Source: Minisyncoccota bacterium (GTDB lineage Bacteria; Patescibacteriota; Minisyncoccia; Phycocordibacterales; DASSSU01). From it: a stretch of DNA of 64,000 bases. The position numbers and the translations under genes were made by a program. Below the pieces are notes generated by a model. It was given only the letters and a program-made list of their open reading frames with translations, searched no databases and was not told where the DNA came from. The stretch's first letter is position 1, and the number at the start of each line of letters is the position of its first letter. This document shows positions 6,428-46,895 of the stretch, piece after piece. The stretch spans positions 8,481 through 72,480 of the forward strand of contig DASSSU010000020.1 of NCBI GenBank assembly GCA_035708305.1, read 5' to 3'.

Positions 6428-6474
6428 AAAAAACGCTTGCCTTAGTATATATTAAACTAAGGCAAGCGAAAAGT

Positions 6475-27423: not shown

Positions 27424-27550
27424 AGGTACTTCTACAAATAAAGAAAGCCCAAACGAGCTTTCAAATATCCTATCAGAGAAAGCCTCTTTGTCAAATTTTT
27501 CTCCTGTTTTTCTGCATTTTGAGGCAAAATTTCCATGCTTTTTCTCTGAT

Positions 27551-28681
27551 TTATTCTGATTCCCACATTCCCAGCCACATCCAGGCGAGATTGTAGAAGT
27601 CGTATTTCGACGGATCGGCTCCGGAGAGCTTCTGCACGTACATGGTATGCGTCGCATTCGGATACAGGATTCTCCATACCGGCAGAAGCGCTGCATAGTG
27701 CGCACCCGACTCATAGCTGACCGAAGCGGTTCCGTTGGAACGATACGTCGCAAAAATTTCTCCTTTCTTGTTCCAATCAAATGCCAATGGAACGGTCATA
27801 CTTTTTAAGAATGACAGAGCCCGCGGATCCTTTGAATATTCGTAGTCAAGCGCCACTCGGTATGGTACGCGGATCGCATCCCAATCGTACCCAGATGCCG
27901 CCTCGCCGTTCATTTGGAAATTGGTCGTGAAGTTCCCATGGGAATCAACCCGGCACCAGTCCGTCGGAAGCCCTGCCGATCCGCGGCATTCCGAATAAAT
28001 TTTGTAGGAAGAATCTACGAGCTCCATCCAATCATGACTGGGATCCATTTGTGCAAACACACGATACGCATACGGTGCCAAGTATGAAGGGTTCAAAGTT
28101 GCTCCACTTTCGCCCGCCGTCCAGTTGCCGGCAGTGACATACCGAGTACCCGCAACTTTTTTTGTCTCGTTGTTCCAAATCCCCTGAAGGATTTTTTTGG
28201 ATTCCTGATCATACTGCGGCATGTTCCACCTTCGCGCCGCCAAGTGAAGCGCATACGCAATATCGGTATCAGCATCCGTCGCAGCATTCCAGTCTGTGAC
28301 TTTGCCATTTGAGTACTGCCAAGCAAAGAGCCCATCACCGCGCTGCAAATGAGTCTTTGTCCAATTCCAGACATGTCGGAACACTGTTCGGTCGTTCTCT
28401 CCAACCGCGATCAGCATCATGTATGCCTGACTTTCCGAGACAGTGCCATTAGGACGGGTCTCAACAAAACCGCTCCAATGCACATACCTGTCCAAAGTGT
28501 AGAGATAAACAGAGTCTTCTTTTTTGTGAATACCAGAACCAAAAAGATCCTGCCATGTAAACTGCACCTGATGCCCAAGGAATCCAAAGAATCCTCCTGC
28601 TGCCATCAGTGTTCCCGCAAAGAATACTTTCACTTTACCTGCTTTTTTCTGAGAGTTTCCCCGTCTCAAACGATCCAACAT
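27551..28681 (-). CDS. Glycoside hydrolase family 8 (endo-beta-1,4-glucanase, BcsZ/CelY-like), membrane-anchored/secreted
   Basis: N-terminal TM. SESQAYMMLIAVGENDRTVFRHVWNWTKTHLQ, then DGLFAWQY, then DWNAATDADTDIAYALHLAARRW parallels the BcsZ blocks SEGQGYGM / NWT / AW / DAD. 376 aa. Confidence 0.7.
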   Translation of the reverse strand: MLDRLRRGNSQKKAGKVKVFFAGTLMAAGGFFGFLGHQVQFTWQDLFGSGIHKKEDSVYLYTLDRYVHWSGFVETRPNGTVSESQAYMMLIAVGENDRTVFRHVWNWTKTHLQRGDGLFAWQYSNGKVTDWNAATDADTDIAYALHLAARRWNMPQYDQESKKILQGIWNNETKKVAGTRYVTAGNWTAGESGATLNPSYLAPYAYRVFAQMDPSHDWMELVDSSYKIYSECRGSAGLPTDWCRVDSHGNFTTNFQMNGEAASGYDWDAIRVPYRVALDYEYSKDPRALSFLKSMTVPLAFDWNKKGEIFATYRSNGTASVSYESGAHYAALLPVWRILYPNATHTMYVQKLSGADPSKYDFYNLAWMWLGMWESE

Positions 28682-28802: not shown

Positions 28803-31022
28803 TTATTTTTTTGAACTCTCAATAGTTTTCCATAAAGTTGTCGTTGCCGGCGTTCGCTTCGCCATTAACCACGTCACAAAAAATATTGCCACATAAAGAA
28901 AAAGAGAAAACGGAAACTGAAAAAAAGTTTTAAAAAATTCTTTTACGACTAAAAATTTTGGAAGATAACTTTCTTTTTTGACCAGTTCTTCGCCAAAAAT
29001 ATCGCGATGCCGTGTCTGATTCTGCATGACGCGGATCCCTTGCTTGAGGTGATCGGAAAAATTATCAGGAAGTGTGAAGTACGTGAGCACACCTCTCGCA
29101 TAGCCATATTTGAAGCCATTTTTTTTCGAAAAAAGAAACGAATACACATCTTCACCCGGACGTTCCACGATATTTAATTTTTTGTAAAGTTTTTGGTGAA
29201 AAGCTCTTTGCGCTCCGTAGCACGTGTAACGGTTATTTCCTCCGGCATACGAAAGGTAAACGGCATACTTCAAACGGCATCCGGCATAGAGCGCTTTTTC
29301 TATCAGCGTTCGGGGAGGGGTGGGTGTGGGAAGCGCGGAAGTAAAGTCCGCTTCCCCGAGAACAATCGGCCGCGTGAGATTTTCGAGCACCATATCGTTT
29401 CCCAGCTGAATATCCGCATCAAACACCACAGCAACATCCGCGCTGGTGAGCTGAAAAAATTGATTCACTCTTGCAGCTTTCCCTCTTCGCATCTTCTCAT
29501 CCAAAATAATGATCTTGTGAGAACCGAGGGATGCCGCTTCTCGTACGGTACCATCGGTGCTTCCATCGGAGAAAAGAAAAATTTTGTCTAACACAAAATG
29601 CTCCTGCCGCTGATGAAGAATTGACTGGAGGAATTCTTTAATATTTTTCTCTTCATTCAAAGCAGAGATACCGACGGAAACACGTGGAGGTGTCGGAACT
29701 CTGGCTGCCTCTGATCGAGAAATATACTCCGCTCTCTCCCGTTCTTCTTTTTGCAACGCAGCACGCTCCTGAAAGGCTCTGAAAAAATGCATTGAAAAAA
29801 TTGTTACCGTATGCAAAAGTGCCGTAAAGAAAAAAACGAGGAGAAATTCTCCAATACGGTGATGAAAAACAAGCGTTCCGACAAAGAAAATCAGCGCAGA
29901 CAGAAGCGCGGCGAAAGTAAACTGAAATTCCTTTTTTGCGTGGTGATACAGCACAACAGTGTAAGAAATCGTAAAGCCTGTCATAGCAAAAATGTACCAG
30001 GGTAAAAGCGGCAAAACAGCAGCCACTTTACTTCCATAAATCGCGGTAAAAAACCACTTCCCAAAAAAGATAAAAAACACCGCGCCAAGTGTGACAAAAG
30101 CAACCGTTGCAGCAAGTAACCATCGAAAGATGCCGCGTGTGTCCTTTCCTTCGCGCGTAAAGTTTGAAATTACCGAGATCATAACCGCAGAGAGGAGTGA
30201 ACCCGAAAAGAAAAGCATTTTGCCGCAGAGGGTAATAAGCGCGTACGCCCCGGCAGTTTCCGGATCAAAAAAAGCTTTCGCGAGAAAAATATCGAACGTC
30301 AAAAAGGTGAGCGTCGTCAAGCCAAGGAGAACAGTAAAAAAGAAAAATGCGCTGGGAAAAGGGATCGAATCTTTCGTAATATTTTCTTGCGGCAAATTTC
30401 CCGCGCGAACTTTCCAAAGAAAAAACAGCCCAAGAAAACACGAGAGGATCACCGAAATTGGAATGCTCAAATACGCCAGCGGTGCCAGACCCCAAACGGT
30501 GAACATTACTGCACCGATCAGCTTAAAGAGCGATTCAGAAAAAAAAATAATTCCTGCGATCGCAAAATACAAACCGCCTTGGAAAATTCCGCGAAGCAAA
30601 AATGTCAATCCTCCGAACAAAAAAATCGGGAGAAAAAACATAAGTGGCACTGCACCAGTCTCCCAGATACGGGCGAGAACGGGCAGAGCCGCGAGCCACA
30701 CAACAGACAAGATTCCCGCAAACGCCGCCACCTGCTTTCCCCAAGTGCGGAAGAAGAAAAATCCTGAAGTTTCCGGCCGCCCGCCATACCAGCCAACGCC
30801 GTGCCCTACGCTCGAAGACAGTGCGTTTAAAAAAACACTCGCCGTAGTGAGCAACGCCAAAAAAACCGCCACCAAGCTAAAATCGCCCGGCGTCAGATGG
30901 CGCCCCAAATACAGGTAAAAGATAAAATTCAAAATATTGCCAAACACCAACGCGAGACTGAAAACGGCACCCTCCCGAATTGTCTGCGGCAAAAAATTTT
31001 TTATTTTTTCCAAAGTAAGCAT
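28803..31022 (-). CDS. Fusion protein: multi-TM polysaccharide-flippase-like (Wzx/MOP-type) N-domain + GT2 glycosyltransferase C-domain
   Basis: ~14 predicted TM helices in the first ~440 aa. The C-terminal part has GT2 motifs (VSVGISALNEEKNIKEFL, FLFSDGSTDGT, VVFDADIQL). 739 aa. Confidence 0.55.
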   Translation of the reverse strand: MLTLEKIKNFLPQTIREGAVFSLALVFGNILNFIFYLYLGRHLTPGDFSLVAVFLALLTTASVFLNALSSSVGHGVGWYGGRPETSGFFFFRTWGKQVAAFAGILSVVWLAALPVLARIWETGAVPLMFFLPIFLFGGLTFLLRGIFQGGLYFAIAGIIFFSESLFKLIGAVMFTVWGLAPLAYLSIPISVILSCFLGLFFLWKVRAGNLPQENITKDSIPFPSAFFFFTVLLGLTTLTFLTFDIFLAKAFFDPETAGAYALITLCGKMLFFSGSLLSAVMISVISNFTREGKDTRGIFRWLLAATVAFVTLGAVFFIFFGKWFFTAIYGSKVAAVLPLLPWYIFAMTGFTISYTVVLYHHAKKEFQFTFAALLSALIFFVGTLVFHHRIGEFLLVFFFTALLHTVTIFSMHFFRAFQERAALQKEERERAEYISRSEAARVPTPPRVSVGISALNEEKNIKEFLQSILHQRQEHFVLDKIFLFSDGSTDGTVREAASLGSHKIIILDEKMRRGKAARVNQFFQLTSADVAVVFDADIQLGNDMVLENLTRPIVLGEADFTSALPTPTPPRTLIEKALYAGCRLKYAVYLSYAGGNNRYTCYGAQRAFHQKLYKKLNIVERPGEDVYSFLFSKKNGFKYGYARGVLTYFTLPDNFSDHLKQGIRVMQNQTRHRDIFGEELVKKESYLPKFLVVKEFFKTFFQFPFSLFLYVAIFFVTWLMAKRTPATTTLWKTIESSKK

Positions 31023-31025
31023 ACC

Positions 31026-32783
31026 CTATTTATTATTCACCAGTCCCATTTTCTGTTCTATCGTTTTTGGATCCCAAGTCTGCATGTTTGGATGAAGTGA
31101 CGGAACATACGCTTCATTGAGATGATTTTCCTGGATATATTTTTCCACGGCAGGAATTTTGAGCTGATAGAGAACTGTTTCTGGAGTTTTGTATACCATC
31201 GTGTAGAAGTTTTTGAAATACACACTCCCTTCCCATTTGTCAGACACCGGATCTTTTGCGCGCACTCGATCGGGACTGGTCGGGTTGGTCATGATCACCC
31301 ACGGTGTGTAGAGCCATGGACGCCCAAGCACTTCGTCAAAATAGATAAAGTTTCCTTCATAAATATAATTCTTGAGCGGAATGTCGCTATCAAGAAGCGT
31401 GTAGTCATGGTTAAAGCGAGTGGCGAGAATTTTCCCTCCGGTGTAATGCTCTTTGAGGTACACGGCCACCGGGTTCTTTTGATCACGCGATGTAGCACTT
31501 AAGTCATCCCGAATCACAGAAAAATTACTGGCAAAAGCGGTGCGATAAAAGTGCACACCGGTAATCGTAAAAACAAAAATCGCAAACACCGGAATGACAA
31601 GAACCGAAACCCATTTTTGCCGAACGTGAACGGCAAGATATTCCCGAACCCCGACAGCCATGAGCGTGACCGCCGCCACGGCAAACCCGATCCAGGTCAA
31701 CCCGTAGCGGGTATTGTGAAAGCCCACGTACGAGAGGAATTCAGGCGTGTAAATTGCCGCCGAACCGCGATATAAGCTGGAAACCACCGCCGCAAACGGA
31801 ACCAGCAGCGCCACAAATGCCGCGGCGACAATTGTTTTTTTCTTCACCAGCGCAATGGCAAGAATGGCACAAAAGAGAGAGAGTGGAACAAAAAACTTCC
31901 CCAGCATGTAAAAAGACGCATGCAGAAAAAAATTGACGGAGGAAAGTACGCTGTGCTGCGTCAGATCCGAGTTGATGGAAAGGTTCCAAACCTCGCCATT
32001 TCCGATACCAGCAAATGCAAGCGGACTTCCGGCGAACGCCCAGCTATTCAGTACGATCAGAACCATTCCCACCGCCGCAAGAACGCCATAGAGTACCGTG
32101 AGTGCTTCAGATTCGGAGTATGTTTTTTTCTTGCGGTACATTTGCACCCATAGCATGAACACCAAAACCGGAATGAGCAGCAGACCTTCATACCTCGAAA
32201 GACAGGTGAGCGTAACAAAGAGTGCCGTAAGCAAGATATATCTCAGACGCTCATACTTCATCCAGAGCGTGAAGAAGTACGCGGTTCCAAAAAGCATGCT
32301 CATGAAGAGGATTTCTGTCATTGGCACAGACGCGTAGTAGAGAACAAAAGGATTAAAGACGTATAGCAACGTTCCCAAGAAACTCAATATTTTTCGTCCA
32401 CTGAGTTCCAGCAGTAAGCGATACAGAAACACGCTTCCCATGGCAAAAAAGGGAATGAGCGCCGCAGCCCCCATGAGTCCCGTACGAAACAAAAAATCCG
32501 ACAGAGAAAATGGCGCCATGACCACGTGTAAAAGCGGCGGCCACGTACCGAGCTGGCTGACTCCCGGCGTCATGCTGTCGATCAGGATCCGAGCGAAAAT
32601 CATATGTGCCACTTCATCAGCAAGTGCTGTGGTTAAGTGTTTCGTGGAAACATACCACGCCATAAGCGAAGCTGAGGTGACCGAGATCAACACCAGCGCG
32701 CACTCGTAACGATATCGCGCAAAAAAATCCAAAAACCCGCCGCGCTCAGTATTTTCTCTGTTTGTGTTTGTATGCATGTTCAT
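31026..32783 (-). CDS. GT-C fold glycosyltransferase, PMT/GT39-like (protein O-mannosyltransferase-like) integral membrane protein
   Basis: First extracytoplasmic loop carries LADEVAHMIFARIL, resembling the PMT/ArnT catalytic DE(VHF) motif. ~11 TM followed by a large C-terminal soluble domain. 585 aa. Start overlaps the next gene's stop by 4 nt. Confidence 0.5.
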   Translation of the reverse strand: MNMHTNTNRENTERGGFLDFFARYRYECALVLISVTSASLMAWYVSTKHLTTALADEVAHMIFARILIDSMTPGVSQLGTWPPLLHVVMAPFSLSDFLFRTGLMGAAALIPFFAMGSVFLYRLLLELSGRKILSFLGTLLYVFNPFVLYYASVPMTEILFMSMLFGTAYFFTLWMKYERLRYILLTALFVTLTCLSRYEGLLLIPVLVFMLWVQMYRKKKTYSESEALTVLYGVLAAVGMVLIVLNSWAFAGSPLAFAGIGNGEVWNLSINSDLTQHSVLSSVNFFLHASFYMLGKFFVPLSLFCAILAIALVKKKTIVAAAFVALLVPFAAVVSSLYRGSAAIYTPEFLSYVGFHNTRYGLTWIGFAVAAVTLMAVGVREYLAVHVRQKWVSVLVIPVFAIFVFTITGVHFYRTAFASNFSVIRDDLSATSRDQKNPVAVYLKEHYTGGKILATRFNHDYTLLDSDIPLKNYIYEGNFIYFDEVLGRPWLYTPWVIMTNPTSPDRVRAKDPVSDKWEGSVYFKNFYTMVYKTPETVLYQLKIPAVEKYIQENHLNEAYVPSLHPNMQTWDPKTIEQKMGLVNNK

Positions 32784-35071
32784 ATTTGGTCGCGAAGATT
32801 AACCGGATTATTTTGGGAAGGCTGATTTTCCGCCGCTCTCATTTTCACCGGAGCGGTTTGAGGAGCTTCTGAGCGCACCCCGTGTTTCGTTTTGTCCCAG
32901 TAATACGGATTGGTAATGAACTGGACAGCACCGCGCGTGGTGGCGTACGCGAGCATCACCCAGTAAAAAATCGAAAGCAGGTTGTATTTCACCAATGAAT
33001 ACCGCCCGCGCTGGTATGAAGAGAGCAAGTTGAGATACGTGAAAACGAAATTCCCCGTTAAAAAAGTGAAGACGGAAATATAGAGCACGACCTTTGGAAA
33101 AAGTTCCTGCACAAAAAGCGGCTGAAAAATGAGCCACACGAGAAATATGATCCAAAAGAAAAGATTGAGGATGTTGATGAGCACGGTCCCAGGAACCACA
33201 AACAAGAACCCGAGAAACGCTCCCCAACCGCCGATCTCATCTTTGAAACGAAGCGGGTGGCGCAAGTGCACGATACTGGTTTGGATAAACCCCTTCATCC
33301 AACGCGATCGCTGGTTGGCCCAAGCGCGAAACGTGCTCGTCGCCTCTTCCCGACTCACAGAGTTGAGCAACCCGGTCTGAAAGCCTCGTCGATGGAGACG
33401 GATACCCAGATCACAGTCTTCTGTGACATTGTACGGATCCCAGCCGCCGATCTCGCGAAGCATATCCACCCGAAAATGTGTGCTGTGTCCTGACAGCGGA
33501 AGCGGAATGCCCATTTTATGAAGTCCGGGAAGAAAATAGTCGTAGTGGAAAGAAAACTCAGAGTTGAAAAGCCTCGTGATCACGCCATCATCAGAGTTGT
33601 AATGATCAAGCCGTGTCTGCAACACTCCTAAGTGCGGTTTTTTTTGAAACGCCAAAACCGCTTTTTTAAGCTGGTCCGGATCGGGAATAATTTCCGCATC
33701 ATAGATAGAGAGAAAAACTCCTCTCGTGTGAAGCAGCGCGACATTCAGCGCCTTTGGCTTCGTCTTTGGCTTCACATCCGGCAAAATCAGCATCTTCATG
33801 TGCCCAGGGAGTTCGGCGTTTTCAAGCGCATGGATGGTTTCTGTATCGTATTCTTCAAGCGTGATAATCATCTCAAGTTTTTCCGGTGGATAATCAATCG
33901 ATGTCATGGCACGGACAATCTGATCCACCACTTCCGATTCCTGGTAGAGCGGAATCAAAACCGTATACAGAGGAAGGTCTTCATCCCGAAGCGCAGCAAT
34001 TTCTTCCCGTGAGAAATCCAAGACATTATCAGAACGCACTGCTTTCCAAACCACCAAAAGCTTGAAGAGCAAAATAAAAAAATAAAAAAACGCGGAAATT
34101 CCCACCCACACCACCAGCAAGGGAACATGAAAAGCTTTGGATAAGAAGAGACTGATGCCAATGAATACTGCTAAAAGTATGACGATGAGTGAAACAGTTT
34201 CAAAGTAAAAGTGCTTTTTCGCGCTCATGATGTCCGAAAGGAAAAGGAAATCTTTTGTGTTTTCAAAATCATTTTCAAATCGCTCGGAGTGGTGCGGATA
34301 ATCCAAAAATTTAAAAAACGCCAAAAGGAAATACTCGCATCGAAGTGCGATTCCGCCAAACAGAAGTTCGAAACCGGTACCCAGGGCATTGACCTTGCTC
34401 TTGCCGCTTTCGCGTGCCGCAAAATGGATCGGCACTTCTGTAATGCGCCATTTCATATGACTCGCCTTGTAGAGAAATTCATAATCAAACCCCCACTTTG
34501 AAGGAGAGAGCGGCACACTCTCCACCACCCTTCTCCGAAACACCTTCAAGCCGGACTGCACATCTATCGGTGTCCCCAGAAGCAGCCTGCCAAAAACATT
34601 TCGAAAAACCCTGCTCAGAAAGCTTCGTACACTTTTTTCTTCCGTTCTTGTCTTTCGGTTCGCCACCACAATGTCGGCTGACTCCAATTTTTTTATCATT
34701 TCCGGAATAGTCTCCGGCGGATACTGGAGATCAGCATCGATCATAGCAATAATACCGGTATCTGCGTGAGTTATTCCTTCAAGCAACGAGTAGGATTTTC
34801 CCTTCTTCCCCTTCTTGCGATACAACCCCATCGGGAAAGATGGCTGATAATGTTCCAGGTACTCAAACGTTCCATCTGAAGAATGGTCGTCAATAAAAAT
34901 CACCTCGTAGTTGATGCAAGCGTTTTCAAAAGTACGATCCAAACGCTCCAGAAACAGTGGAAGATTCCCCCGTTCATCGAGAACTGGAACAACAACAGAA
35001 ACTTCAGGCTTTGCGTAAATGATCTGGTCAGTAAATTTTCGTGAAAGAGCGCGTTTTTTTTGAACATCCAA
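32780..35071 (-). CDS. Double glycosyltransferase family 2 protein: DPM1/GtrB-like polyprenyl-phosphate glycosyltransferase + processive cellulose-synthase-like GT2 (D,D,D,QxxRW)
   Basis: N-domain: VSVVVPVLDE...IFIDDHSSDGT...IAMIDADLQYPPE (DPM1/ArnC-like). TM block. Second domain: LYTVLIPLYQESEVV...SIYDAEII...NVTEDCDLG...ANQRSRWMKG (DxD, TED, QRxRW), then C-terminal TMs. 763 aa. Confidence 0.75.
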   Translation of the reverse strand: MDVQKKRALSRKFTDQIIYAKPEVSVVVPVLDERGNLPLFLERLDRTFENACINYEVIFIDDHSSDGTFEYLEHYQPSFPMGLYRKKGKKGKSYSLLEGITHADTGIIAMIDADLQYPPETIPEMIKKLESADIVVANRKTRTEEKSVRSFLSRVFRNVFGRLLLGTPIDVQSGLKVFRRRVVESVPLSPSKWGFDYEFLYKASHMKWRITEVPIHFAARESGKSKVNALGTGFELLFGGIALRCEYFLLAFFKFLDYPHHSERFENDFENTKDFLFLSDIMSAKKHFYFETVSLIVILLAVFIGISLFLSKAFHVPLLVVWVGISAFFYFFILLFKLLVVWKAVRSDNVLDFSREEIAALRDEDLPLYTVLIPLYQESEVVDQIVRAMTSIDYPPEKLEMIITLEEYDTETIHALENAELPGHMKMLILPDVKPKTKPKALNVALLHTRGVFLSIYDAEIIPDPDQLKKAVLAFQKKPHLGVLQTRLDHYNSDDGVITRLFNSEFSFHYDYFLPGLHKMGIPLPLSGHSTHFRVDMLREIGGWDPYNVTEDCDLGIRLHRRGFQTGLLNSVSREEATSTFRAWANQRSRWMKGFIQTSIVHLRHPLRFKDEIGGWGAFLGFLFVVPGTVLINILNLFFWIIFLVWLIFQPLFVQELFPKVVLYISVFTFLTGNFVFTYLNLLSSYQRGRYSLVKYNLLSIFYWVMLAYATTRGAVQFITNPYYWDKTKHGVRSEAPQTAPVKMRAAENQPSQNNPVNLRDQI

Positions 35072-35344
35072 AAACCTCTTTCTTTTTTTGTGAAAAAGTT
35101 TATTTTTAATAATAAGTCTTTGTTTTTACGGGAGATTCCGCCGTTTTTCTTTCGTCTTCAGCTGGTTAATAAAGACGTGCGGTGATACGAGGGCTTACAG
35201 GAATTTTGTATTGCACTTTAAAAGAGTGTACACGCGGAGAGATTAAGAAAAGATGATACTGGTATTTTTAAGAGAGAAAAATTTTTGTCAGCTCAAATTT
35301 TAAGAATTTTTGAGAGAAAAAAGAAAATTTAAAAAACGAAAAAC

Positions 35345-35380
35345 AAAAAAATCTTGCTGAATGCAAGATTTTTTTGTTTC
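35345..35380 (-). terminator. Rho-independent terminator downstream of secF
   Basis: atcttgc-tgaa-tgcaagat hairpin flanked by A-run/T-run (tttttttgtttttcg on the minus strand). Confidence 0.6.
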
Positions 35381-35397
35381 TGAAATTTGAAAAGTGA

Positions 35398-36414: not shown

Positions 36415-37914
36415 TTAAGATTCCGTCCTCTTCTTTTTGAAGTGAAACCCGCTTCCAAAAAGAAATTTCGCCGTCGGACTGGTTTCCCGGTCGGACAAAC
36501 CAATAGCAAAAAGCAGAATACGGGTAAGAGTGACAGCAGAGAAAAGCGAGACCACGACTCCCAGCCCAAAAACAAGTGCAAAGCCCTTCACGATAGACGT
36601 TCCTAGCCAAAAGAGCACAATTGCCGTGATAATACTTGAAAGGTGACTGTCTCGGATAGACGGCCAAGCGCGGAGGAAGCCTTCATGTGTTGCATCATGG
36701 AGCGTCTTTCCTTTGCGCATTTCTTCCTTGAGACGCTCAAAGATCAGGATGTTGGCATCCACGGCCATACCGATGGAGAGAATGAACCCGGCAATCCCCG
36801 CTGCGGTCAAAGTTACTGGAATGAGCCGGAAAAAGGCCACGGTTGCTGCTGCGTAAAATGCCAGTGCAAACACCGCAACCAAGCCCGGAAGACGGTACCA
36901 CAAGAGCATGAAAAACGCCACCAGAAGAAACGCGATAATTCCCGCCGTGATACCGTCATTAAAAGCTTTTCCTCCCAAGGTTGCTCCCACTGTTTCGCTG
37001 GAGAGAAGCTGAATAGGAACCGGGAGAGCCCCGGCGTTCAAGCGCCCTACCAGCGTCCGTGCTTCCTGCGGCGTAAAATTTCCTTCAATCACCGCCTGTC
37101 CTCCGGTAATTTTTTCATTGATCACCGGCGTGGAAATAGGCGCACCATCAAGAAAGATAGCGAGGACTTTACCAATATTGTTTCCCGTGATTTGTTCGAA
37201 AAGCTTTGATCCCTGGCTGTTGAACTTGAGTGCTACGATTGGACTGCCTGAAACCTGGTTGAACTGCAAACTTGCGCCGGTGAGGTATCGCCCAGTAAGG
37301 CCGGTTGCGAGATACTGAGGAATGCTCGTACTTGCAGTACTGGTTACTGTGGAAGAAGAAACAGCGGAACTCGAAGCGGAAGTGCTGGCAACGTGGGGAG
37401 TTTGCGGTGCGTTTGGAGTTAAGCTAAACGAAAGCCCGTCAGCGGTGGTGCTTCCCGTTTCAGAAGAAGAAGCAGTGGTGCTTGTGGACTGTGCCGCTAC
37501 AAATTTTGGATTCTCCAGTTTGAACTCCAGAACCGGAGTTTTTCCGATGAGCGCTACCGCCTGATCTACATCAGTAATTCCCGGCAACTCCACCAGCAGG
37601 CGCTGCTGGTTTGCGGTTCCGGCTACCAGACTCCCCCGTTCCACCTGCACAACCGGTTCAGATACGCCGAAGAGATTCACACGCCGTTCGATCACATCCC
37701 GAAGTGCCGCCATGGAGGCATCTACTTCCGACGGATCCAGTTTTGAAACATCCGCCTTGTACGTCAGCTGCGTTCCGCCCGAGAGGTCAAGTCCCAGCTG
37801 AAGCGGAAAGGCTTTTAAAAATCCGGGTTTAGCAGACATCGGCGCAAAGCTGAAGTATGCCACCAGAATACCAAACACAATAAGTCCGATCGCCAATAGT
37901 CTGATTTTTGCCAT
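36415..37914 (-). CDS. secD: Protein-export membrane protein SecD (with Ser/Thr-rich low-complexity insertion)
   Basis: 499 aa. N-terminal TM plus periplasmic domain. The C-terminal TM bundle carries LGLDLSGG and GIAGFILSIGMAVDANILIFERLKEE. Insert STSTTASSSETGSTTADG...SSAVSSSTVTSTASTS. Confidence 0.9.
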   Translation of the reverse strand: MAKIRLLAIGLIVFGILVAYFSFAPMSAKPGFLKAFPLQLGLDLSGGTQLTYKADVSKLDPSEVDASMAALRDVIERRVNLFGVSEPVVQVERGSLVAGTANQQRLLVELPGITDVDQAVALIGKTPVLEFKLENPKFVAAQSTSTTASSSETGSTTADGLSFSLTPNAPQTPHVASTSASSSAVSSSTVTSTASTSIPQYLATGLTGRYLTGASLQFNQVSGSPIVALKFNSQGSKLFEQITGNNIGKVLAIFLDGAPISTPVINEKITGGQAVIEGNFTPQEARTLVGRLNAGALPVPIQLLSSETVGATLGGKAFNDGITAGIIAFLLVAFFMLLWYRLPGLVAVFALAFYAAATVAFFRLIPVTLTAAGIAGFILSIGMAVDANILIFERLKEEMRKGKTLHDATHEGFLRAWPSIRDSHLSSIITAIVLFWLGTSIVKGFALVFGLGVVVSLFSAVTLTRILLFAIGLSDRETSPTAKFLFGSGFHFKKKRTES

Positions 37915-37968: not shown

Positions 37969-40506
37969 CTATGGTTTTTTCACCTGTGATGTTCCGGAAG
38001 CAGAGCTTTCGGTAGAGTTTGGGATGCTTTCTGTAGAATTGACAGCCGCATGAGTGAAGGGTGATTTCCCCGCTTTCAGATCCCCAAGAATGTTTTTTAC
38101 ATCTGCACTGTCCGGATTCATTTTTTGAAGATTTTCAAAAATACTGACCGCCTGCTGATGTTCGCCCAATCGCTCATACGAAAGTCCGAGATAGTATTCC
38201 GCATTGGCGTATGTCGGGACAAGAGCAATGGACTGCAAGAGCGCCTTCTCTGCCATGTCATATTCCCCATTTTGATATTCCAAAAATCCCAGCTGGAACC
38301 AAAGCGTTGGATCGTTCTGTACCAAAGAAGCAGCGTGTGCGAGAGAATCAGCTGCACCCTGCGTGTCGTTCAAAGCAATCTGGAGACTCGCCTGCTCCAC
38401 ATAGGCATCTGCATAGTTAGATTTTTCTCGGAGAGCATTTTTCAGGTATGTTTGTGCCTGAGCGGTGTTGTTTTGCGTACGTTCCAAACGTGCCATGTCC
38501 AGATATGCCTCCGGAGAATACGGAGAGAAAGTAAAGACATGGGAATAAAAGGCGTTTGACGCTTCATACGCGCCGGAGACGTGAAGTGAGGCGAAAAAAC
38601 GGTAGAGGTTTCCGAGGAAGAGCCAGTTTTGGTAATTGGTCGGATCAAGGTCTTTCGCCGTCTGCGCATCTGTGATCGCCTGTTCAAAGATCTTCTGGAA
38701 ATTATCCATGTCAACCGACTTGCCAGAAGCAGAAGCCTGCTGTTCGATCTGCTGCATTTGCATGACGCTAATTTCTGAAAGTCCGCGGTAGTATGCATCG
38801 ACTTTATCAAGCTTGGCGGCTTTTGAAATTTCCGCCCGTGCCTCCGCGAGATTCTTATTTTGGGTGTAGGCAGTGGTACCTTTTTGAAAAGCTACGGCGG
38901 CACGGTATTTTTGTACGGTCAGATAGATACCGCCAAGAGAGACAATGAGCAGCACAACGAGAATACCGGTGAATGCTGTTTTCGTTTTGCCGGGCACAGA
39001 AAATTCACATTGAGAGAGTTTGACAATCTGCTCCTGCCCCAGAAAAGCAATCAGCATACCCAGCAAGGCAAATGCCAAAGCAGTTACTGCAAGTCCCGGC
39101 GTATAAAACAAAAGCACTCCCCACAGATACCAGACCATCAGATACAAGGTAAGAAACATTTTTTTGCCGGAAGAAGACAGTGCTCGCGAGAAAAACCCCC
39201 GCTTCCCTTCGTAGATCATTCCTGCAAGAAGAACAAGCAGTGAAAAAATCCCGAGCCACCCTTGCGTAATCCCGCGCGTTCCAAAGAAACTGACGGCTGA
39301 CTGGAAATCTACGTTCCACCACGGGGTCAAATTCACCGCTTGGGACTTGTACTGCGCCCAGTCTTTGAAAAATGTTCCCGGACCAGTGCCAAACAGCGCG
39401 TGGGTTATCCCCGTATGTGCAACGTCTCCCGAAATTTGAACCGTGGTCTTCCACGATGGCCGCGCTTGAGCGGTGCTATCCATTCCGGTCAAATGCGAAA
39501 GAGCGGGGTTGATGCGCGGACCAAATACCAGAAAAATTATGGAAAAAAGAAAAACAAAAGCGGGAAAAAATACCGAGCGAAGAAAAATACCCTGCTTTGT
39601 TTTTGGGGTGTGCTCTCTCTTTTTTACCAGCCAAGAAAAAAGGAAAGGGATGGAAACTCCCTCTTGCGACAAGCCAGTGAGTAAAAGAACAGCCGAAAAG
39701 AACACGAGCAGCCAGAGCACCACCGGCAGCGAAAAAACTGCCAGAGCAATGAGTGATATCACCACCATAAGAGATGCTGCGATTTGCAACGCACTTTTTT
39801 TCCAGAAAAACTGCTGAAGACACAGCCCTACCAAAACCGAAAAGCCGAAGAAAACCGGCACGTCATACCATCCGCCAAAAATCGTTTGATACGCCCCGGT
39901 AAAGTATCCCAAAGAAAGAAACGAAGCTCCGAAGATCAAACGAAGCGCATGAAAGAGCGTTAGCAAGAGGAATAGAAGAAAAAAAGCGAAGAAAAAAACT
40001 TGAACATGCTTCCGTTCAAAGTACCGTGCCGAAAGAAAAGCGAGAAGCGAAAAAATTACCGTAAAAAGAAAGGTGTCTGTCTGGATTCCCCGTCCAAAGA
40101 GCGCATAACTCCACGAGGAAGAAACAAGTGAAGAAAGAAATGCTGAGAACACCAGAAGTACCAAACCTACCCACACAAAGCTTTTTGGGAACGAAAAACG
40201 CAAAGCTCTGAGACTGGAAAAAATCCACAGACAAAAAGCCGCTAAGATGAGAATCCCCAGCAAAGCCCCCTTTGAAGTCTCAAGCAAAAGTCCGGGAATT
40301 GGTACAAAAAAAATCGAAACAAAAAAAACCGCTGCCCACAAGCATCCGCTCGAAATCTTTTCCAATAGCGTCTTCGTGTGTATTCGCGAAGAAGGGGGCA
40401 CTCGATGTGAGTGTTCGGAAATTTCTGAAAGCTCTTCTCGCGAATGTTCGTGCGCCGAAGCTCTCACCTTTTTTTCATAAATGCTCTGTATTCTTCTTTC
40501 GTTCAT
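37969..40506 (-). CDS. O-antigen ligase-like (Wzy_C) polytopic membrane protein fused to C-terminal TPR repeats
   Basis: ~12 TM helices over ~500 aa, then ~300 aa of TPR-like repeats (YYRGLSEI..., AKDLDPTNYQNWLFLGNLY, AEYYLGLSYERLGEHQQA). 845 aa. Confidence 0.55.
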   Translation of the reverse strand: MNERRIQSIYEKKVRASAHEHSREELSEISEHSHRVPPSSRIHTKTLLEKISSGCLWAAVFFVSIFFVPIPGLLLETSKGALLGILILAAFCLWIFSSLRALRFSFPKSFVWVGLVLLVFSAFLSSLVSSSWSYALFGRGIQTDTFLFTVIFSLLAFLSARYFERKHVQVFFFAFFLLFLLLTLFHALRLIFGASFLSLGYFTGAYQTIFGGWYDVPVFFGFSVLVGLCLQQFFWKKSALQIAASLMVVISLIALAVFSLPVVLWLLVFFSAVLLLTGLSQEGVSIPFLFSWLVKKREHTPKTKQGIFLRSVFFPAFVFLFSIIFLVFGPRINPALSHLTGMDSTAQARPSWKTTVQISGDVAHTGITHALFGTGPGTFFKDWAQYKSQAVNLTPWWNVDFQSAVSFFGTRGITQGWLGIFSLLVLLAGMIYEGKRGFFSRALSSSGKKMFLTLYLMVWYLWGVLLFYTPGLAVTALAFALLGMLIAFLGQEQIVKLSQCEFSVPGKTKTAFTGILVVLLIVSLGGIYLTVQKYRAAVAFQKGTTAYTQNKNLAEARAEISKAAKLDKVDAYYRGLSEISVMQMQQIEQQASASGKSVDMDNFQKIFEQAITDAQTAKDLDPTNYQNWLFLGNLYRFFASLHVSGAYEASNAFYSHVFTFSPYSPEAYLDMARLERTQNNTAQAQTYLKNALREKSNYADAYVEQASLQIALNDTQGAADSLAHAASLVQNDPTLWFQLGFLEYQNGEYDMAEKALLQSIALVPTYANAEYYLGLSYERLGEHQQAVSIFENLQKMNPDSADVKNILGDLKAGKSPFTHAAVNSTESIPNSTESSASGTSQVKKP

Positions 40507-44827: not shown

Positions 44828-45409
44828 TTATGATTCCTGATTCCTGAACAGAATCGTATTTTCAAAATGTTCGGCAGATGCTCCCTCTCCGCCCAAGGTC
44901 AAATCAACCTTCACTCCACTCCCGTGTTTGGCAGAAAGTTCGTTCACTGAAAATTGTGTCACGGGCGTATCGTTTCGCGTGAGCGCCACCCCCGCCGCAT
45001 CACCTTCAGAAATTTCAAGCATGCCGTTTTGTAGAAAAAAACTGATGGTTGTATCACTTCCTTGATCGTCCGTTGTATTTAAAACCAGTTTTCCCGTATT
45101 CGTCCCAAAAGTGCTCTTGCTCTCGTCTACGGATTTCGCTCTTCTGATTTCGTACGCCATTCGATCCATCCCCACTTGTGCAGAAGACAAAATATGCTCC
45201 GAAACACGAAGATCGGAAAAATTTTTCATAGAGGATACGAGCGATTCGATTGCCAAAACTGAAACTGCGCTAAAAATTGCCAAGTATGCAACAAGTTCAA
45301 TCACGGTAAAACCACCACAAAATTTTTTTTGCGGATTTCCTTCGCGAGAAATTAGATTTCCAGAAGGAAAGTTTGAAGAACGAAATGGCTTTTTTTTCAT
45401 ATCAATCAT
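44828..45409 (-). CDS. Prepilin-type N-terminal cleavage/methylation domain protein (pseudopilin)
   Basis: Class III signal G|FTVIELVAYLAIFSAV with Glu+5. Confidence 0.7.
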   Translation of the reverse strand: MIDMKKKPFRSSNFPSGNLISREGNPQKKFCGGFTVIELVAYLAIFSAVSVLAIESLVSSMKNFSDLRVSEHILSSAQVGMDRMAYEIRRAKSVDESKSTFGTNTGKLVLNTTDDQGSDTTISFFLQNGMLEISEGDAAGVALTRNDTPVTQFSVNELSAKHGSGVKVDLTLGGEGASAEHFENTILFRNQES

Positions 45410-46384: not shown

Positions 46385-46386
46385 TT

Positions 46387-46884: not shown

Positions 46885-46895
46885 GGCGTTTGAAA

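What the first reader, a model, noticed from the sequence alone, without database searches (positions are those of the whole stretch)
32780..35071. Unusual single-polypeptide fusion of a DPM1/GtrB-like GT2 and a cellulose-synthase-like processive GT2
The first ~250 aa carry the DxD/DDHSSDGT motifs of polyprenyl-phosphate sugar synthases. After a TM block, the second domain carries DxD, TED and QRSRW, hallmarks of processive beta-glycan synthases, followed by further TM helices. A fusion of lipid-linked donor synthesis with a processive polymerase in one protein is uncommon. It suggests either a lipid-primed polymer or a bifunctional enzyme.
Basis: seen in the sequence. Interest (0 to 1): 0.5.

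Follow-up and report, generated by a model that had tools for sequence, protein, structure and literature searches.

The report
Lipid-sugar synthase fused to glucan synthase
One real gene in an ultra-small (CPR/Patescibacteria) bacterium joins an enzyme that loads a sugar onto a membrane lipid carrier to a cellulose-synthase-like polymerase; with a neighbouring outer-face transferase and a cellulase-like enzyme it forms a conserved, unstudied kit, most likely for a cell-surface beta-glucan.

Summary
Window 32780-35071 (minus strand) is one 763-aa ORF. Residues 23-252 are a DPMS/GtrB/ArnC-type polyprenyl-phosphate glycosyltransferase (PI-GT) with no transmembrane (TM) helix of its own. Residues 253-733 are a BcsA/PgaC-like membrane synthase carrying DAE, TED and QRSRW. 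It is not a frameshift: 54 of 80 related species-level loci carry the same fusion, all or nearly all labelled CPR, so it is common in that lineage. In other genomes a free-standing ortholog of the N-domain lies beside a synthase-type GT2 in 7 of 8 contexts examined. The gene heads a four-gene unit: fusion, GT-C-fold transferase, flippase-like domain fused to a GT2, and a cellulase-like GH8. GT-C follows the synthase in 38/38 close loci, and GH8 is often fused to it. Best reading (about 0.4): the synthase makes a beta-1,4-glucan-like backbone, and the N-domain supplies a lipid-linked sugar that GT-C adds outside the membrane. Main rival (about 0.3): the lipid-sugar primes the synthase. No publication was found. 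It is a new variant of known enzyme kinds.

The parts
32780..35071 (-). Whole fused gene, 763 aa: PI-GT domain plus BcsA/PgaC-like synthase module
   Evidence: Single ORF. Identical NCBI protein. AlphaFold2 (AF2) model pLDDT 86.9, pTM 0.83.
34316..35005 (-). N-domain (residues 23-252): polyprenyl-phosphate glycosyltransferase GT-A domain with two interface helices (147-165, 229-252) and no TM helix of its own
34724..34738 (-). DADLQ (residues 112-116), the metal- and diphosphate-binding motif of PI-GTs
   Evidence: Equals 89-DADLQH-94 of PfDPMS and 94-DADLQD-99 of GtrB (alignment; PMC5526996). D114 invariant; D112, A113, L115 and Q116 at least 90% conserved.
34394..34657 (-). Candidate acceptor-phosphate and A-loop residues: R139, R149-x3-S153, R220..G223-x-S225-K226
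   Evidence: R139 aligns with PfDPMS Arg117, and R220/K226 with Arg202/Lys208. R149-x-x-x-S153 repeats the Arg131-x3-Ser135 spacing on interface helix 1, but HMMER places it 4 residues off. R139, R149, R220 and S225 are at least 90% conserved.
34205..34315 (-). Conserved juxtamembrane segment (residues 253-289, FKFLDYPHxSER...DFLFLxxIxSAKKH). It belongs to the synthase module, not to the N-domain.
   Evidence: Present at the N-terminus of synthase-only homologs. D274 invariant. pLDDT about 88-94.
34034..34204 (-). TM1-TM2 (residues 290-346), a helical hairpin between the two catalytic domains
   Evidence: Hydropathy. AF2 helices 290-314 and 318-346. An even number of TM helices puts both GT domains on the same, cytoplasmic side.
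33266..34024 (-). Synthase GT-A domain and interface helix (residues 350-602), with KPKALN, D458-A-E460, QTRLDHYN, SGHSTHFR, TED 550-552 and QRSRW 587-591
32912..33226 (-). TM3 (616-649), TM4 (660-687) and a less hydrophobic helix (691-720), probably interface-type. Conserved N633, N636, W640, W646, N674, N681, Y703 and W704.
32873..32911 (-). C-terminal invariant motif W725-x-K727-T728-x-H730-G731. It is cytoplasmic and a candidate equivalent of the BcsA gating loop FxVTxK.
   Evidence: Invariant in fused and split homologs. In P0163 a cytoplasmic GT4 domain follows this motif with no hydrophobic segment in between. Equivalence to the gating loop rests on order and spacing only.
31026..32783 (-). 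Partner gene: GT-C-fold glycosyltransferase, 585 aa. Its start overlaps the fusion's stop by 4 nt.
   Evidence: AF2 pLDDT 91.9, pTM 0.92. All significant Foldseek hits are GT-C enzymes: DPY19, STT3/OST, PglB, AglB, ALG12, AftA/B, ArnT. Pfam PMT_2 scores 25.6 bits against a 26.1 cutoff. NCBI name 'GT family 39'. Immediately downstream of the synthase in 56 of 69 loci, and in 38/38 of the close subfamily.
28803..31022 (-). Third gene: roughly 12-TM MOP-flippase-like domain (residues 1-430) fused to a cytoplasmic GT2 (431-739)
   Evidence: Pfam GT2 8e-16; Polysacc_synt weak. Among homologous TM domains, 5 of 19 hit NCBIfam 'MOP flippase family' (best 3.3e-6) and 1 hits Oglyco_Wzx. In Microgenomates this domain is fused behind the synthase.
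27551..28681 (-). Fourth gene: GH8 glycoside hydrolase with an N-terminal membrane anchor
   Evidence: Pfam GH8 1.8e-38. The nearest solved relatives are endo-beta-1,4-glucanases (CelA 1.9e-23; BcsZ/CMCax types), ranking above chitosanases and xylanases. N-terminal hydrophobic stretch FFAGTLMAAGGFFGFLG.
35339..35381 (-). Terminator-like hairpin after secF. With the 325-nt gap it marks the upstream boundary of the unit.
   Evidence: 19-bp stem followed by a T run.
27443..27462 (-). Terminator-like hairpin after GH8, the downstream boundary of the unit

Best explanation
The gene encodes a genuine bifunctional membrane enzyme at the centre of a CPR-specific pathway for an envelope beta-glycan.

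Shown:
- The C-terminal module is a cellulose-synthase-type GT2, with four TM helices plus interface helices and the motifs DAE, TED and QRSRW.
- The N-terminal domain is a polyprenyl-phosphate glycosyltransferase that has no membrane anchor of its own and uses the synthase as its anchor.
- Both catalytic sites face the cytoplasm.

Inferred:
- The synthase module polymerises a beta-linked glycan from a UDP-sugar and passes it outward. The glycan is most likely beta-1,4-glucan-like, judged from the GH8 partner.
- The N-domain makes polyprenyl-P-sugar at the same spot in the membrane.
- That lipid-linked sugar is moved to the outer face. In this operon and in some lineages it may first be extended by the GT2 or GT4 fused to the MOP-like flippase domain.
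- The GT-C enzyme encoded immediately downstream uses it as donor to add a side-branch or cap to the nascent glycan.
- The membrane-anchored GH8 trims or releases the chains, as BcsZ does for cellulose.

In short, a synthase-dependent backbone track and a three-component (PI-GT / flippase / GT-C) decoration track are wired together by gene fusion.
For: N-domain is a PI-GT:
- Best sequence and fold matches are PfDPMS, ArnC and GtrB.
- It has the DADLQ motif. R139 aligns with Arg117 and the A-loop R220/K226 with Arg202/Lys208.
- All NCBIfam hits that span the whole domain are PI-GTs.
- A TM-less DPMS variant is still membrane-targeted and active (PMC5526996).

C-module is synthase-like:
- Conserved Asn, Trp and Tyr in the TM helices.

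Same side of the membrane:
- Two TM helices lie between the domains.
- The C-terminus is cytoplasmic, because in P0163 a GT4 domain follows it directly.

The partner is a true GT-C fold, and the solved GT-C enzymes it matches use polyprenyl-P(P)-linked donors (established family knowledge):
- Fold evidence.
- Its Pfam type is PMT_2, the family of ArnT and the PMTs (single-sugar donors per PMC3485146 and from my knowledge of ArnT/PMT).
- A GT-C plus a lipid-linked donor is the stated hallmark of three-component glycosylation (PMC11127046).

Synteny:
- GT-C lies immediately downstream in 38/38 close loci and in 56/69 overall. GH8 is present in 23/38 and is fused to GT-C in at least 15 loci.
- Free-standing N-domain orthologs (41-50% identity, 228-260 aa, no TM) lie beside a synthase-type GT2 in 7/8 contexts, and with both GH8 and GT-C in 5/8. 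Some of those synthases and GT-Cs are not orthologous to the window's.

The N-domain is more variable than the synthase GT domain (47% vs 66% identity) and is replaced by divergent GT2s in some loci, as expected for a variable decoration.
Against: - No enzymatic or chemical data exist. The sugar, the polymer and the GT-C acceptor are all inferred.
- The minimal four-gene clusters (PI-GT, GH8, synthase, GT-C) contain no recognisable flippase for the lipid-linked sugar.
- Gene fusion usually joins consecutive steps. In this model the step after the N-domain is the flippase or GT-C, not the synthase.
- The most frequent partner seen for the N-domain family is a synthase. GT-C is nearly as frequent but was not recognised in some loci (L091, L092).
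- The synthase module has only 4 TM helices, fewer than the 6-TM minimal cellulose-synthase core (PMC8892547), so autonomous export is not assured.
- The cytoplasmic GT2 or GT4 domains fused to the flippase-like domain need the extra assumption that the branch is an oligosaccharide.
- GH8 also contains chitosanases and xylanases, so 'glucan' is not proven.
Confidence: 0.4

Rival explanations
1. Lipid-primed synthesis. The N-domain makes polyprenyl-P-glucose (or another sugar). The adjoining synthase module uses this as the primer and elongates it processively. The lipid-linked glycan crosses the membrane through or along the 4-TM synthase module, which would be open to the bilayer, helped by the MOP-like domain where one is present. 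The GT-C then transfers the chain from the lipid carrier to its final acceptor (another chain, peptidoglycan or a protein). The GH8 edits or releases it.
For: - The fusion joins what would be consecutive steps. The most frequent partner of the N-domain family is a synthase-type GT2, fused in 54/80 loci and adjacent in 7/8 split cases, across at least two non-orthologous synthase families.
- The minimal four-gene cluster is self-sufficient in this model, because no separate flippase is needed.
- The synthase module lacks the last two TM helices of the 6-TM minimal core. This could leave a lateral opening for a lipid-linked acceptor.
- In Microgenomates the PI-GT, synthase, MOP-like and GT4 domains form one polypeptide of about 1580 aa, like an assembly line for one lipid-linked glycan.
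- N-domain orthologs are also fused to an extracellular GH12.
- Lipid-linked primers for cellulose synthesis were proposed long ago for Agrobacterium and cotton (PMC8892547).
Against: - To my knowledge, no characterised bacterial PI-GT product serves as a cytoplasmic elongation primer. Characterised bacterial cases are donors for GT-C enzymes (PMC11127046; PMC3485146).
- BcsA needs no lipid primer in vitro: purified BcsAB is active with UDP-glucose, c-di-GMP and Mg2+ (PMC8892547).
- The GT-C is of the PMT_2 type, and ArnT and the PMTs in that family transfer single sugars.
- The N-domain is less conserved than the synthase and is sometimes swapped for a divergent GT2, which is odd for a primer-maker that must match the synthase's acceptor site.
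- Twenty-six of 80 loci have no fused N-domain, and some have no PI-GT nearby.
Confidence: 0.3
2. Two independent activities sharing a scaffold. The N-domain and the GT-C form a protein (or peptidoglycan or lipid) O-glycosylation system of the PMT type, unrelated to the polymer. The fusion only anchors a TM-less PI-GT to a convenient membrane protein, as Ppm1-D2 is anchored to D1 in M. tuberculosis.
For: - NCBI names the GT-C 'GT family 39' (protein O-mannosyltransferase family) and Pfam gives PMT_2.
- Many N-domain orthologs carry their own extracytoplasmic Ser/Thr/Pro-rich region. The neighbouring SecD has a Ser/Thr-rich insert. Such regions are O-glycosylated by a GtrB-type enzyme with a GT-C in streptococci (PMC12041528; abstract only).
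- There is a precedent for an anchoring-only fusion (PMC3485146).
Against: - It does not explain why the GT-C is welded to GH8 in at least 15 loci, or why it follows the synthase in 38/38 close loci even where no N-domain is fused.
- It does not explain why non-orthologous synthase/GT-C pairs recruit the same PI-GT and GH8.
Confidence: 0.12
3. Dual-domain copolymerase. Both GT2 domains add sugars alternately to the same growing chain, as in chondroitin polymerase K4CP and the Pasteurella hyaluronan and heparosan synthases.
For: - Two GT-A domains lie in one polypeptide.
- Foldseek aligns the model to K4CP (2z86) and PmHS2 across both domains, with low TM-scores of 0.21-0.26.
Against: - The N-domain has the PI-GT-specific features: DADLQ, the A-loop R..G.SK and two interface helices. 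Its best matches are DPMS, ArnC and GtrB, not polymerase domains.
- It has free-standing orthologs that JGI names dolichol-phosphate mannosyltransferase.
- In BcsA-type enzymes the acceptor end sits inside the synthase's own active site at the channel entrance (PMC8892547), out of reach of a second domain.
Confidence: 0.04
4. Artefact: two adjacent genes joined by a sequencing or assembly frameshift.
For: None found. The TTG start and the unconserved first 22 residues are the only soft spots.
Against: - The reading frame is continuous.
- The same architecture occurs in 54 independent species-level genomes and about 58 protein clusters from NCBI, JGI, ENA and Logan.
- AF2 gives a confident two-domain model, pTM 0.83.
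- Still larger fusions exist.
Confidence: 0.01

Closest known systems
Polyprenyl/dolichyl-phosphate glycosyltransferases: PfDPMS (5mlz), GtrB (5ekp), ArnC. The closest case in architecture is M. tuberculosis Ppm1 (Rv2051c).
   Same: The N-domain has the same GT-A fold, the DADLQ motif, the Arg117- and A-loop-equivalent residues and two interface helices. Like Mt-Ppm1, a TM-less PI-GT catalytic domain is fused to a different integral membrane protein, and the two parts are separate adjacent genes in related organisms (PMC3485146).
   Different: The fusion partner here is a processive-synthase-type GT2, not an Lnt-like domain, and the PI-GT is N-terminal. GtrB, ArnC and PfDPMS carry their own 2-4 TM helices; this domain has none. 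The sugar specificity is unknown.
Bacterial cellulose synthase BcsA with the GH8 endoglucanase BcsZ
   Different: Identity is only about 20%. The NCBIfam CelA score is 72 bits against a 699 cutoff. There is no PilZ domain and no BcsB or BcsC. The module has 4 TM helices rather than 8, or the 6 of the minimal core, and ends right after the candidate gating loop. DAE replaces DxD.
PNAG synthases PgaC/IcaA (with PgaD/IcaD)
   Same: This is the highest-scoring NCBIfam model (106.9 bits), aligned across residues 356-712. That span includes all helices after the GT domain, so the layout of two N-terminal helices plus three C-terminal helices is the same. I recall that these enzymes need a small membrane partner; this was not checked here.
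   Different: The score is far below the 422-bit cutoff. No deacetylase/hydrolase of the PgaB/IcaB type is in the unit; the partners are GT-C and GH8. The GT-domain motifs (VTEDxD..IRLHRRGF) are closer to BcsA.
Three-component extracytoplasmic glycosylation systems (GtrB/GtrA/GtrC; also GacI/GacK/GacL, CsbB/GtcA/YfhO and the archaeal AglD/AglR/AglS, these last three recalled from memory)
   Same: A PI-GT and a GT-C-fold transferase are encoded together, with a flippase-like membrane domain in the operon. The hallmark is a GT-C plus a lipid-linked donor (PMC11127046).
   Different: The PI-GT is fused to a polymer synthase. The putative flippase is MOP-like rather than GtrA-like and is itself fused to a cytoplasmic GT. 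The presumed acceptor would be a synthase-made glycan, which I am not aware of having been described for such systems.
PcManGT of Pyrobaculum calidifontis (6yv7), described in its paper title as a 'minimal cellulose-synthase-like fold' enzyme of N-glycan biosynthesis
   Different: The primary paper was not read here; only its title and secondary mentions were seen. The window protein also has two extra N-terminal TM helices, a fused PI-GT and a conserved C-terminal W-x-K-T-x-H-G motif.
Two-GT-A-domain polymerases (K4CP chondroitin polymerase, PmHS2)
   Same: Two GT2-type GT-A domains in one chain; Foldseek aligns both.
   Different: These are not known as integral membrane synthases (from my knowledge), and both of their domains extend one chain. 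Here the first domain has PI-GT hallmarks and the second is an integral membrane synthase. TM-scores are only 0.21-0.26.

Membership tests
Polyisoprenyl-phosphate glycosyltransferases (GT2; DPMS/GtrB/ArnC) | GT-A fold with the DADLQ-type metal/diphosphate motif | tested here: met
   D112-A-D114-L-Q116 aligns with 89-DADLQH-94 of PfDPMS. D114 is invariant and the others at least 90% conserved. Fold match to 5mlz, ArnC and GtrB.
Polyisoprenyl-phosphate glycosyltransferases (GT2; DPMS/GtrB/ArnC) | Residues that position the lipid phosphate (PfDPMS Arg117, Arg131, Ser135) | tested here: inconclusive
   R139 aligns with Arg117 and is at least 90% conserved. R149-x3-S153 has the Arg131-x3-Ser135 spacing on interface helix 1, but the HMMER alignment is offset by 4 residues.
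Polyisoprenyl-phosphate glycosyltransferases (GT2; DPMS/GtrB/ArnC) | Acceptor (A-) loop with conserved Arg and Lys, followed by amphipathic interface helix 2 | tested here: met
   R220 and K226 align with Arg202 and Lys208. Helix 229-252 follows. Interface helix 1 (147-165) has a hydrophobic moment of 0.36.
Polyisoprenyl-phosphate glycosyltransferases (GT2; DPMS/GtrB/ArnC) | Own C-terminal TM domain (2 helices in GtrB/ArnC, 4 in PfDPMS) | tested here: not met
   Synthase-only homologs start at about residue 250, so the TM helices belong to the synthase module. This is not disqualifying: Mt-Ppm1/D2 lacks TM helices, and truncated PfDPMS is still active.
Polyisoprenyl-phosphate glycosyltransferases (GT2; DPMS/GtrB/ArnC) | Transfer of a sugar from an NDP-sugar to polyprenyl phosphate | not testable with these tools
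   Needs a biochemical assay.
Membrane-integrated processive GT2 synthases (BcsA/CesA, PgaC, HAS) | Catalytic signature D, DxD, TED, QxxRW | tested here: met
   D409, D458-A-E460 (a DxD variant), T550-E551-D552 and Q587-R-S-R-W591 are invariant or nearly so, and align with the BcsA motifs.
Membrane-integrated processive GT2 synthases (BcsA/CesA, PgaC, HAS) | GT domain inserted between TM helices, with the QxxRW interface helix at the membrane surface | tested here: met
Membrane-integrated processive GT2 synthases (BcsA/CesA, PgaC, HAS) | Minimal 6-TM core: 2 TM + GT + 2 TM + gating loop + 2 TM (PMC8892547) | tested here: not met
   Only 2 + 2 strongly hydrophobic TM helices, then one intermediate helix. 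The chain ends after the W-x-K-T-x-H-G motif, which is cytoplasmic.
Membrane-integrated processive GT2 synthases (BcsA/CesA, PgaC, HAS) | Gating loop motif (FxVTxK in cellulose synthases) | tested here: inconclusive
   The invariant W725-x-K-T728-x-H730-G731 is in the right order, on the right side and with the right spacing. No residue-level alignment to BcsA covers it: HMMER alignments stop at about residue 688.
UDP-forming cellulose synthase BcsA proper | Equivalog-level similarity, C-terminal PilZ domain, BcsB partner | tested here: not met
   TIGR03030 scores 72 bits against 699, and NF008558 70 against 992. No PilZ in Pfam. No BcsB-like gene in the unit.
PNAG synthase PgaC/IcaA | Equivalog-level similarity and a PgaB/IcaB-type deacetylase partner | tested here: not met
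   TIGR03937 scores 106.9 bits against 422.3. No deacetylase among the four genes.
Three-component extracytoplasmic glycosylation system | PI-GT and a GT-C-fold transferase encoded together | tested here: met
   N-domain as above. The neighbour has a GT-C fold. Adjacency holds in 56 of 69 loci.
Three-component extracytoplasmic glycosylation system | Dedicated flippase for the lipid-linked sugar | tested here: inconclusive
   The window has a MOP-like domain in gene 3, with only weak family hits. The minimal clusters in other genomes have none. No GtrA-type gene was seen among the window ORFs scanned.
Three-component extracytoplasmic glycosylation system | Transfer of the sugar to a defined extracytoplasmic acceptor | not testable with these tools
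   The acceptor is inferred only from synteny and from the GT-C~GH8 fusions.

The most novel reading that the evidence does not exclude
The fusion is a natural 'Rosetta stone' for lipid-primed beta-glucan synthesis. The N-domain makes polyprenyl-P-glucose. A stripped-down, laterally open 4-TM cellulose-synthase-like module elongates it and carries the lipid-linked chain across the membrane. A GT-C enzyme then ligates the chain to its acceptor, and GH8 edits it. This would be a pathway type not yet demonstrated in bacteria. It would give the decades-old, unresolved proposal of lipid-linked intermediates in cellulose synthesis (Agrobacterium, cotton) a directly testable system.
Probability: 0.3. 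Interest if true: 0.8.

Novelty: new variant of a known kind. Interest (0 to 1): 0.55.

Why it matters
CPR/Patescibacteria are a very large, mostly uncultured part of bacterial diversity that live attached to other cells, and their surface polymers are almost unknown. This locus defines a widespread kit conserved in that lineage: a lipid-sugar synthase, a cellulose-synthase-like polymerase, a GT-C transferase and a GH8. The kit is repeatedly reinforced by gene fusion, and it predicts a specific envelope beta-glycan.

For polysaccharide biochemistry it joins two routes that textbooks keep apart, the synthase-dependent route and the lipid-carrier/GT-C route. Either outcome would be new: a GT-C decorating a synthase-made polymer, or a lipid-primed synthase. 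The small four-gene unit is suitable for heterologous expression and cryo-EM.

Tried and rejected
- Frameshift or assembly artefact: rejected. The ORF is continuous and the architecture is conserved in 54 species-level loci.
- Membership of BcsA or PgaC proper: rejected. Scores are far below the curated cutoffs, and there is no PilZ, BcsB or deacetylase.
- 'GtrB-like gene near split synthases is the ortholog of the N-domain': the L001 neighbour is only 26% identical and has its own TM helices, so it is a paralog. True orthologs (41-50% identity, no TM) were found later with an N-domain-only search.
- The synthase and GT-C in clusters L085-L088 were assumed to be orthologous to the window's. 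They are not: 21% identity and no significant similarity respectively. These clusters are analogous, not identical.
- MOP-domain identity by PDB profile search gave only spurious GPCR hits. The label rests on weak Pfam and NCBIfam hits.
- The GT2 fused to the flippase-like domain could not be typed beyond generic GT2.
- The afdb50 fold library was unavailable, so the domain order could not be surveyed in UniProt.
- Model coordinates are not exposed. The distance between the two active sites, any lateral opening or channel, and a direct gating-loop superposition could not be examined.
- Literature searches for this fusion or cluster in CPR found nothing relevant.
- Sigma-70-type promoter and terminator counts in the region are not above shuffled expectation. 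Only the two strongest hairpins at the unit's ends are used, as weak support.

Full report
**Observation**

Window 32780-35071 is one uninterrupted minus-strand ORF of 763 aa. It has a TTG start preceded by AGAGG, and lies 325 nt downstream of a strong hairpin terminator that ends secF. An identical 763-aa protein is deposited at NCBI as 'glycosyltransferase [Candidatus Paceibacterota bacterium]' from a 73-kb contig.

Pfam finds two separate GT2-type domains: PF00535 at residues 25-184 (3e-32) and PF13641 at 369-594 (4.5e-36). A hydrophobic hairpin at 290-346 lies between the domains, and more hydrophobic helices follow at 613-720.

One correction is needed. The functional 'DxD' of the second domain is D458-A-E460, which aligns with FDCD of BcsA.

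**The N-terminal domain**

All NCBIfam models that match the whole domain are polyprenyl-phosphate glycosyltransferases (ArnC, PgfS, AglJ, PpgS). Other GT2 models match only the nucleotide-binding half.

At residue level:
- DADLQ equals 89-DADLQH-94 of PfDPMS.
- R139 aligns with Arg117.
- R220 and K226 align with the A-loop residues Arg202 and Lys208.
- R149-x3-S153 repeats the Arg131-x3-Ser135 spacing, although HMMER offsets it by four residues (PMC5526996).

Synthase-only homologs begin at about residue 250 of the query. The two TM helices and the conserved segment 253-289 therefore belong to the second module, and the N-domain has no TM helix of its own. That is compatible with activity. 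A PfDPMS truncation without its TM domain is still membrane-targeted and active, and the catalytic domain D2 of M. tuberculosis Ppm1 likewise has no TM helices (PMC3485146).

**The C-terminal module**

A profile of 53 homologs hits E. coli BcsA at 4e-24. Motifs correspond one by one:

| Window protein | BcsA |
|---|---|
| KPKALN | HAKAGNIN |
| YDAE | FDCD |
| QTRLDHYN | QTPHHF |
| SGHSTHFR | FCGSCAVIRR |
| VTEDCD..IRLHRRGF | VTEDAH..LRLHRRGY |
| QRSRW | QRIRW |

It is not a member of BcsA or PgaC proper. The NCBIfam scores are 72 and 107 bits against cutoffs of 699 and 422, and there is no PilZ domain.

The helix order is TM1, TM2, GT domain, QRSRW interface helix, TM3, TM4, a less hydrophobic helix (691-720), and then an invariant W725-x-K-T-x-H-G motif and a disordered tail. 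In the homolog P0163 a GT4 domain, expected to be cytoplasmic because it uses nucleotide sugars, follows this motif with no intervening hydrophobic segment. The motif is therefore cytoplasmic and the module has four TM helices.

This is two fewer than the '6-TM minimal core' of cellulose synthases, whose last two helices follow the FxVTxK gating loop (PMC8892547). By position and spacing the C-terminal motif looks like that gating loop, but I could not align it residue by residue. The helix count matches PgaC/IcaA, whose model aligns to residues 356-712.

Because two TM helices separate the domains and the C-terminus is cytoplasmic, both catalytic domains face the cytoplasm.

**Not an artefact, and not rare in its lineage**

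About 58 of the best 120 protein clusters (90% identity level) have the full two-domain architecture at 44-59% identity. The rest are synthase-only proteins of about 500 aa.

A scan of one genome per species found 223 genomes with a relative. Of the best 80 loci, 54 carry the fusion. Almost all are labelled Patescibacteria: Paceibacterota, Peribacteria, Saccharibacteria, Doudnabacteria, Roizman-, Gottesman- and Levybacteria, Kerfeldbacteria. Both domains are under constraint, but the N-domain less so (47% vs 66% mean identity to the query).

**Context**

The gene heads a four-gene minus-strand unit bounded by terminator-like hairpins:
1. The fusion.
2. A 585-aa protein whose start overlaps the fusion's stop by 4 nt.
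3. A 739-aa protein with a multi-TM domain plus a GT2.
4. A membrane-anchored GH8.

Gene 2 has no sequence-detectable solved homolog. Its AF2 model (pLDDT 91.9, pTM 0.92) matches only GT-C enzymes at significant E-values: DPY19, STT3/OST, PglB, AglB, ALG12, AftA/B and ArnT. Pfam gives PMT_2 just under threshold, and NCBI names it GT39. The solved GT-C enzymes it matches use polyprenyl-P(P)-linked donors (established family knowledge; PMC11127046).

The nearest solved relatives of the GH8 are endo-beta-1,4-glucanases, including BcsZ/CMCax-type enzymes. These rank ahead of chitosanases and xylanases.

The TM domain of gene 3 is probably a MOP-type flippase, but only weak hits support this.

**Comparative genomics**

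Of 69 related loci with enough downstream sequence, the GT-C ortholog lies immediately downstream of the synthase in 56. In the close subfamily the figure is 38 of 38, whether or not the N-domain is fused (17 fused, 21 not). GH8 is present in 23 of those 38 loci, and it is fused to the C-terminus of the GT-C in at least 15 loci.

In Microgenomates the fusion grows to proteins of about 1580 aa with four parts: PI-GT, synthase, MOP-like domain and GT4. Elsewhere one finds synthase + MOP-like + GT4, MOP-like + GT4, and MOP-like + GT2 + GT4.

The closest free-standing relatives of the N-domain are TM-less proteins of 228-260 aa (41-50% identity) that JGI names dolichol-phosphate mannosyltransferase. 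Eight of their genomic contexts were examined. Seven lie within a few genes of a synthase-type GT2, and five have both GH8 and a PMT_2 GT-C.
- In L090 and L091 the neighbour is an ortholog of the window's synthase module. These are true split forms of the fusion.
- In L085-L088 the synthase is a different, Cellulose_synt-type GT2 (21% identity), and the GT-C is not detectably related to the window's. There the same PI-GT and GH8 are combined with analogous, non-orthologous partners.
- In L092 the associated hydrolase is GH81 instead of GH8.
- One N-domain ortholog is fused to an extracellular GH12.

The functional link between this PI-GT family, a beta-glucan-synthase-type GT2, a GT-C and an endoglucanase is therefore robust and arose more than once.

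**Mechanism**

Shown by computation: the domain identities, the topology and the conserved quartet. Everything about substrates is inferred.

I favour the decoration model at about 0.4. The synthase module makes and passes out a beta-1,4-glucan-like backbone. The N-domain, anchored on the synthase, makes polyprenyl-P-sugar. After flipping, and possibly after extension by the GT2 or GT4 fused to the MOP-like domain, the GT-C adds it to the nascent chain. GH8 trims the product. This follows the only established use of bacterial PI-GT products that I know of, as donors for GT-C enzymes. It fits the PMT_2 type of the GT-C and the greater variability of the N-domain.

The N-domain makes the primer, the four-TM synthase elongates it and translocates it while it is still lipid-linked, and the GT-C ligates it to an acceptor. 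Several observations favour this rival:
- Fusions usually join consecutive steps.
- The minimal four-gene clusters contain no flippase.
- The module has fewer TM helices than the minimal synthase core.
- It is structurally close to PcManGT.
- The four-domain giant proteins look like assembly lines.

Against it, to my knowledge no bacterial example has been demonstrated, and BcsA needs no lipid primer.

Minor rivals are an independent PMT-like protein O-glycosylation system that merely uses the synthase as an anchor (about 0.12), an alternating copolymerase (about 0.04) and an artefact (about 0.01).

**Comparison with known systems and novelty**

Each part belongs to a known superfamily, and the whole works like parts of known systems: Bcs with BcsZ, three-component glycosylation, and the Ppm1 D1-D2 fusion. 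The combination is a TM-less PI-GT fused to a reduced BcsA/PgaC-like synthase and tied to a GT-C and a GH8. I found no publication on it in five literature searches, and public records name it only 'glycosyltransferase'. I rate it a new variant of a known kind.

It is of moderate-to-good interest for two reasons. It predicts an uncharacterised envelope glycan across a huge bacterial radiation. Whichever mechanism is right, it also links the synthase-dependent route and the lipid-carrier route of polysaccharide assembly in a way not yet demonstrated.

**Limits**

- There is no biochemistry.
- The polymer and the sugars are unknown. GH8 is suggestive, not proof.
- The flippase assignment is weak.
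- The gating-loop equivalence is unverified.
- AF2 coordinates and the afdb50 library were not available.
- Taxonomic labels on some MAGs (Gammaproteobacteria, Binatia, two DPANN archaea) are probably binning or labelling errors and were not checked.

Noticed in passing
L040:5213-9958, L047:9959-14719 (also L043, L055, L068, L071, L076, L084): Microgenomates encode single polypeptides of about 1580 aa with four parts: PI-GT, synthase-like GT2, a roughly 12-TM MOP-like domain and GT4 (Glycos_transf_1, 1e-43). L035:882-5090 has the same without the PI-GT.
   Followed up: partly
L004:10183-12948; also L007, L008, L010-L012, L015-L017, L019, L020, L026, L033, L037, L042: The GT-C partner is fused at its C-terminus to the GH8 domain, giving proteins of about 920-970 aa. 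A lipid-donor transferase and a glycoside hydrolase would then sit together on the outer face in one protein.
   Followed up: partly
window 28803-31022 (-): The third gene of the unit is itself a fusion: a multi-TM domain weakly matching the Polysacc_synt/MOP flippase families, plus a cytoplasmic GT2 ending in one TM helix. The GT2 could not be typed beyond generic GT2.
   Followed up: partly
L085/L086/L088 about 2690-7690; L087 7001-12099: Other CPR genomes, including a 1.29-Mb Saccharibacteria contig, carry an analogous quartet: GH8, a Cellulose_synt-type GT2, a PMT_2 GT-C and a TM-less PI-GT. The synthase and GT-C are not orthologous to the window's, but the PI-GT and GH8 are.
   Followed up: yes
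L092:2726-7717: A variant cluster: Cellulose_synt-type GT2, an HlyD/membrane-fusion-like protein, GH81 (a family I know as endo-beta-1,3-glucanases) and an N-domain ortholog. This may be a beta-1,3-glucan version of the same idea.
   Followed up: no
proteins P0164, P0175, P0182, P0201 (about 440-470 aa) and P0219 (568 aa): Many close N-domain orthologs continue into one TM helix, a long Ser/Thr/Pro/Gln-rich low-complexity stretch and a C-terminal TM helix. P0219 instead carries an extracellular GH12 domain.
   Followed up: partly
window 36415-37914 (-), residues about 140-200: SecD, encoded just upstream, has a Ser/Thr-rich low-complexity insert (57% S/T over 30 aa) in its extracytoplasmic domain. 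This is the kind of region that GtrB/GT-C systems O-glycosylate in streptococci.
   Followed up: no
window 37969-40506 (-): An 845-aa protein with many N-terminal TM helices and C-terminal TPR repeats, lying between FtsW (40609-41727) and SecD. Only the TPR part has family hits, and its role is unknown.
   Followed up: no
L001:1938-5854: In a split-form locus, a second large synthase-like GT2 (766 aa) lies beside a GH18 chitinase with a CBM5_12 module. This is another synthase/hydrolase pair, possibly chitin-type. A LPG_synthase_TM gene lies between the GtrB-like GT2 and the synthase (7041-7946).
   Followed up: no
L004:6066-7538: A GH6 gene (a family I know as cellulases) lies divergently upstream of the fused synthase gene in one locus.
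   Followed up: no
L081, L082; L014; L026, L032, L033, L037, L041 and others: Some related loci come from MAGs labelled Woesearchaeota or Aenigmatarchaeota (DPANN), Binatia or 'Gammaproteobacteria'. These are probably binning or labelling errors, but horizontal transfer to DPANN archaea was not excluded.
   Followed up: no
window 44828-48107 (-): A T2SS-F/PilC-type platform gene (46896-48107) is followed by four consecutive ORFs of 161-193 aa. The one scanned against Pfam (44828-45409) had no hit; the other three were not scanned. They are possibly a type IV pilus (pseudo)pilin set.
   Followed up: no
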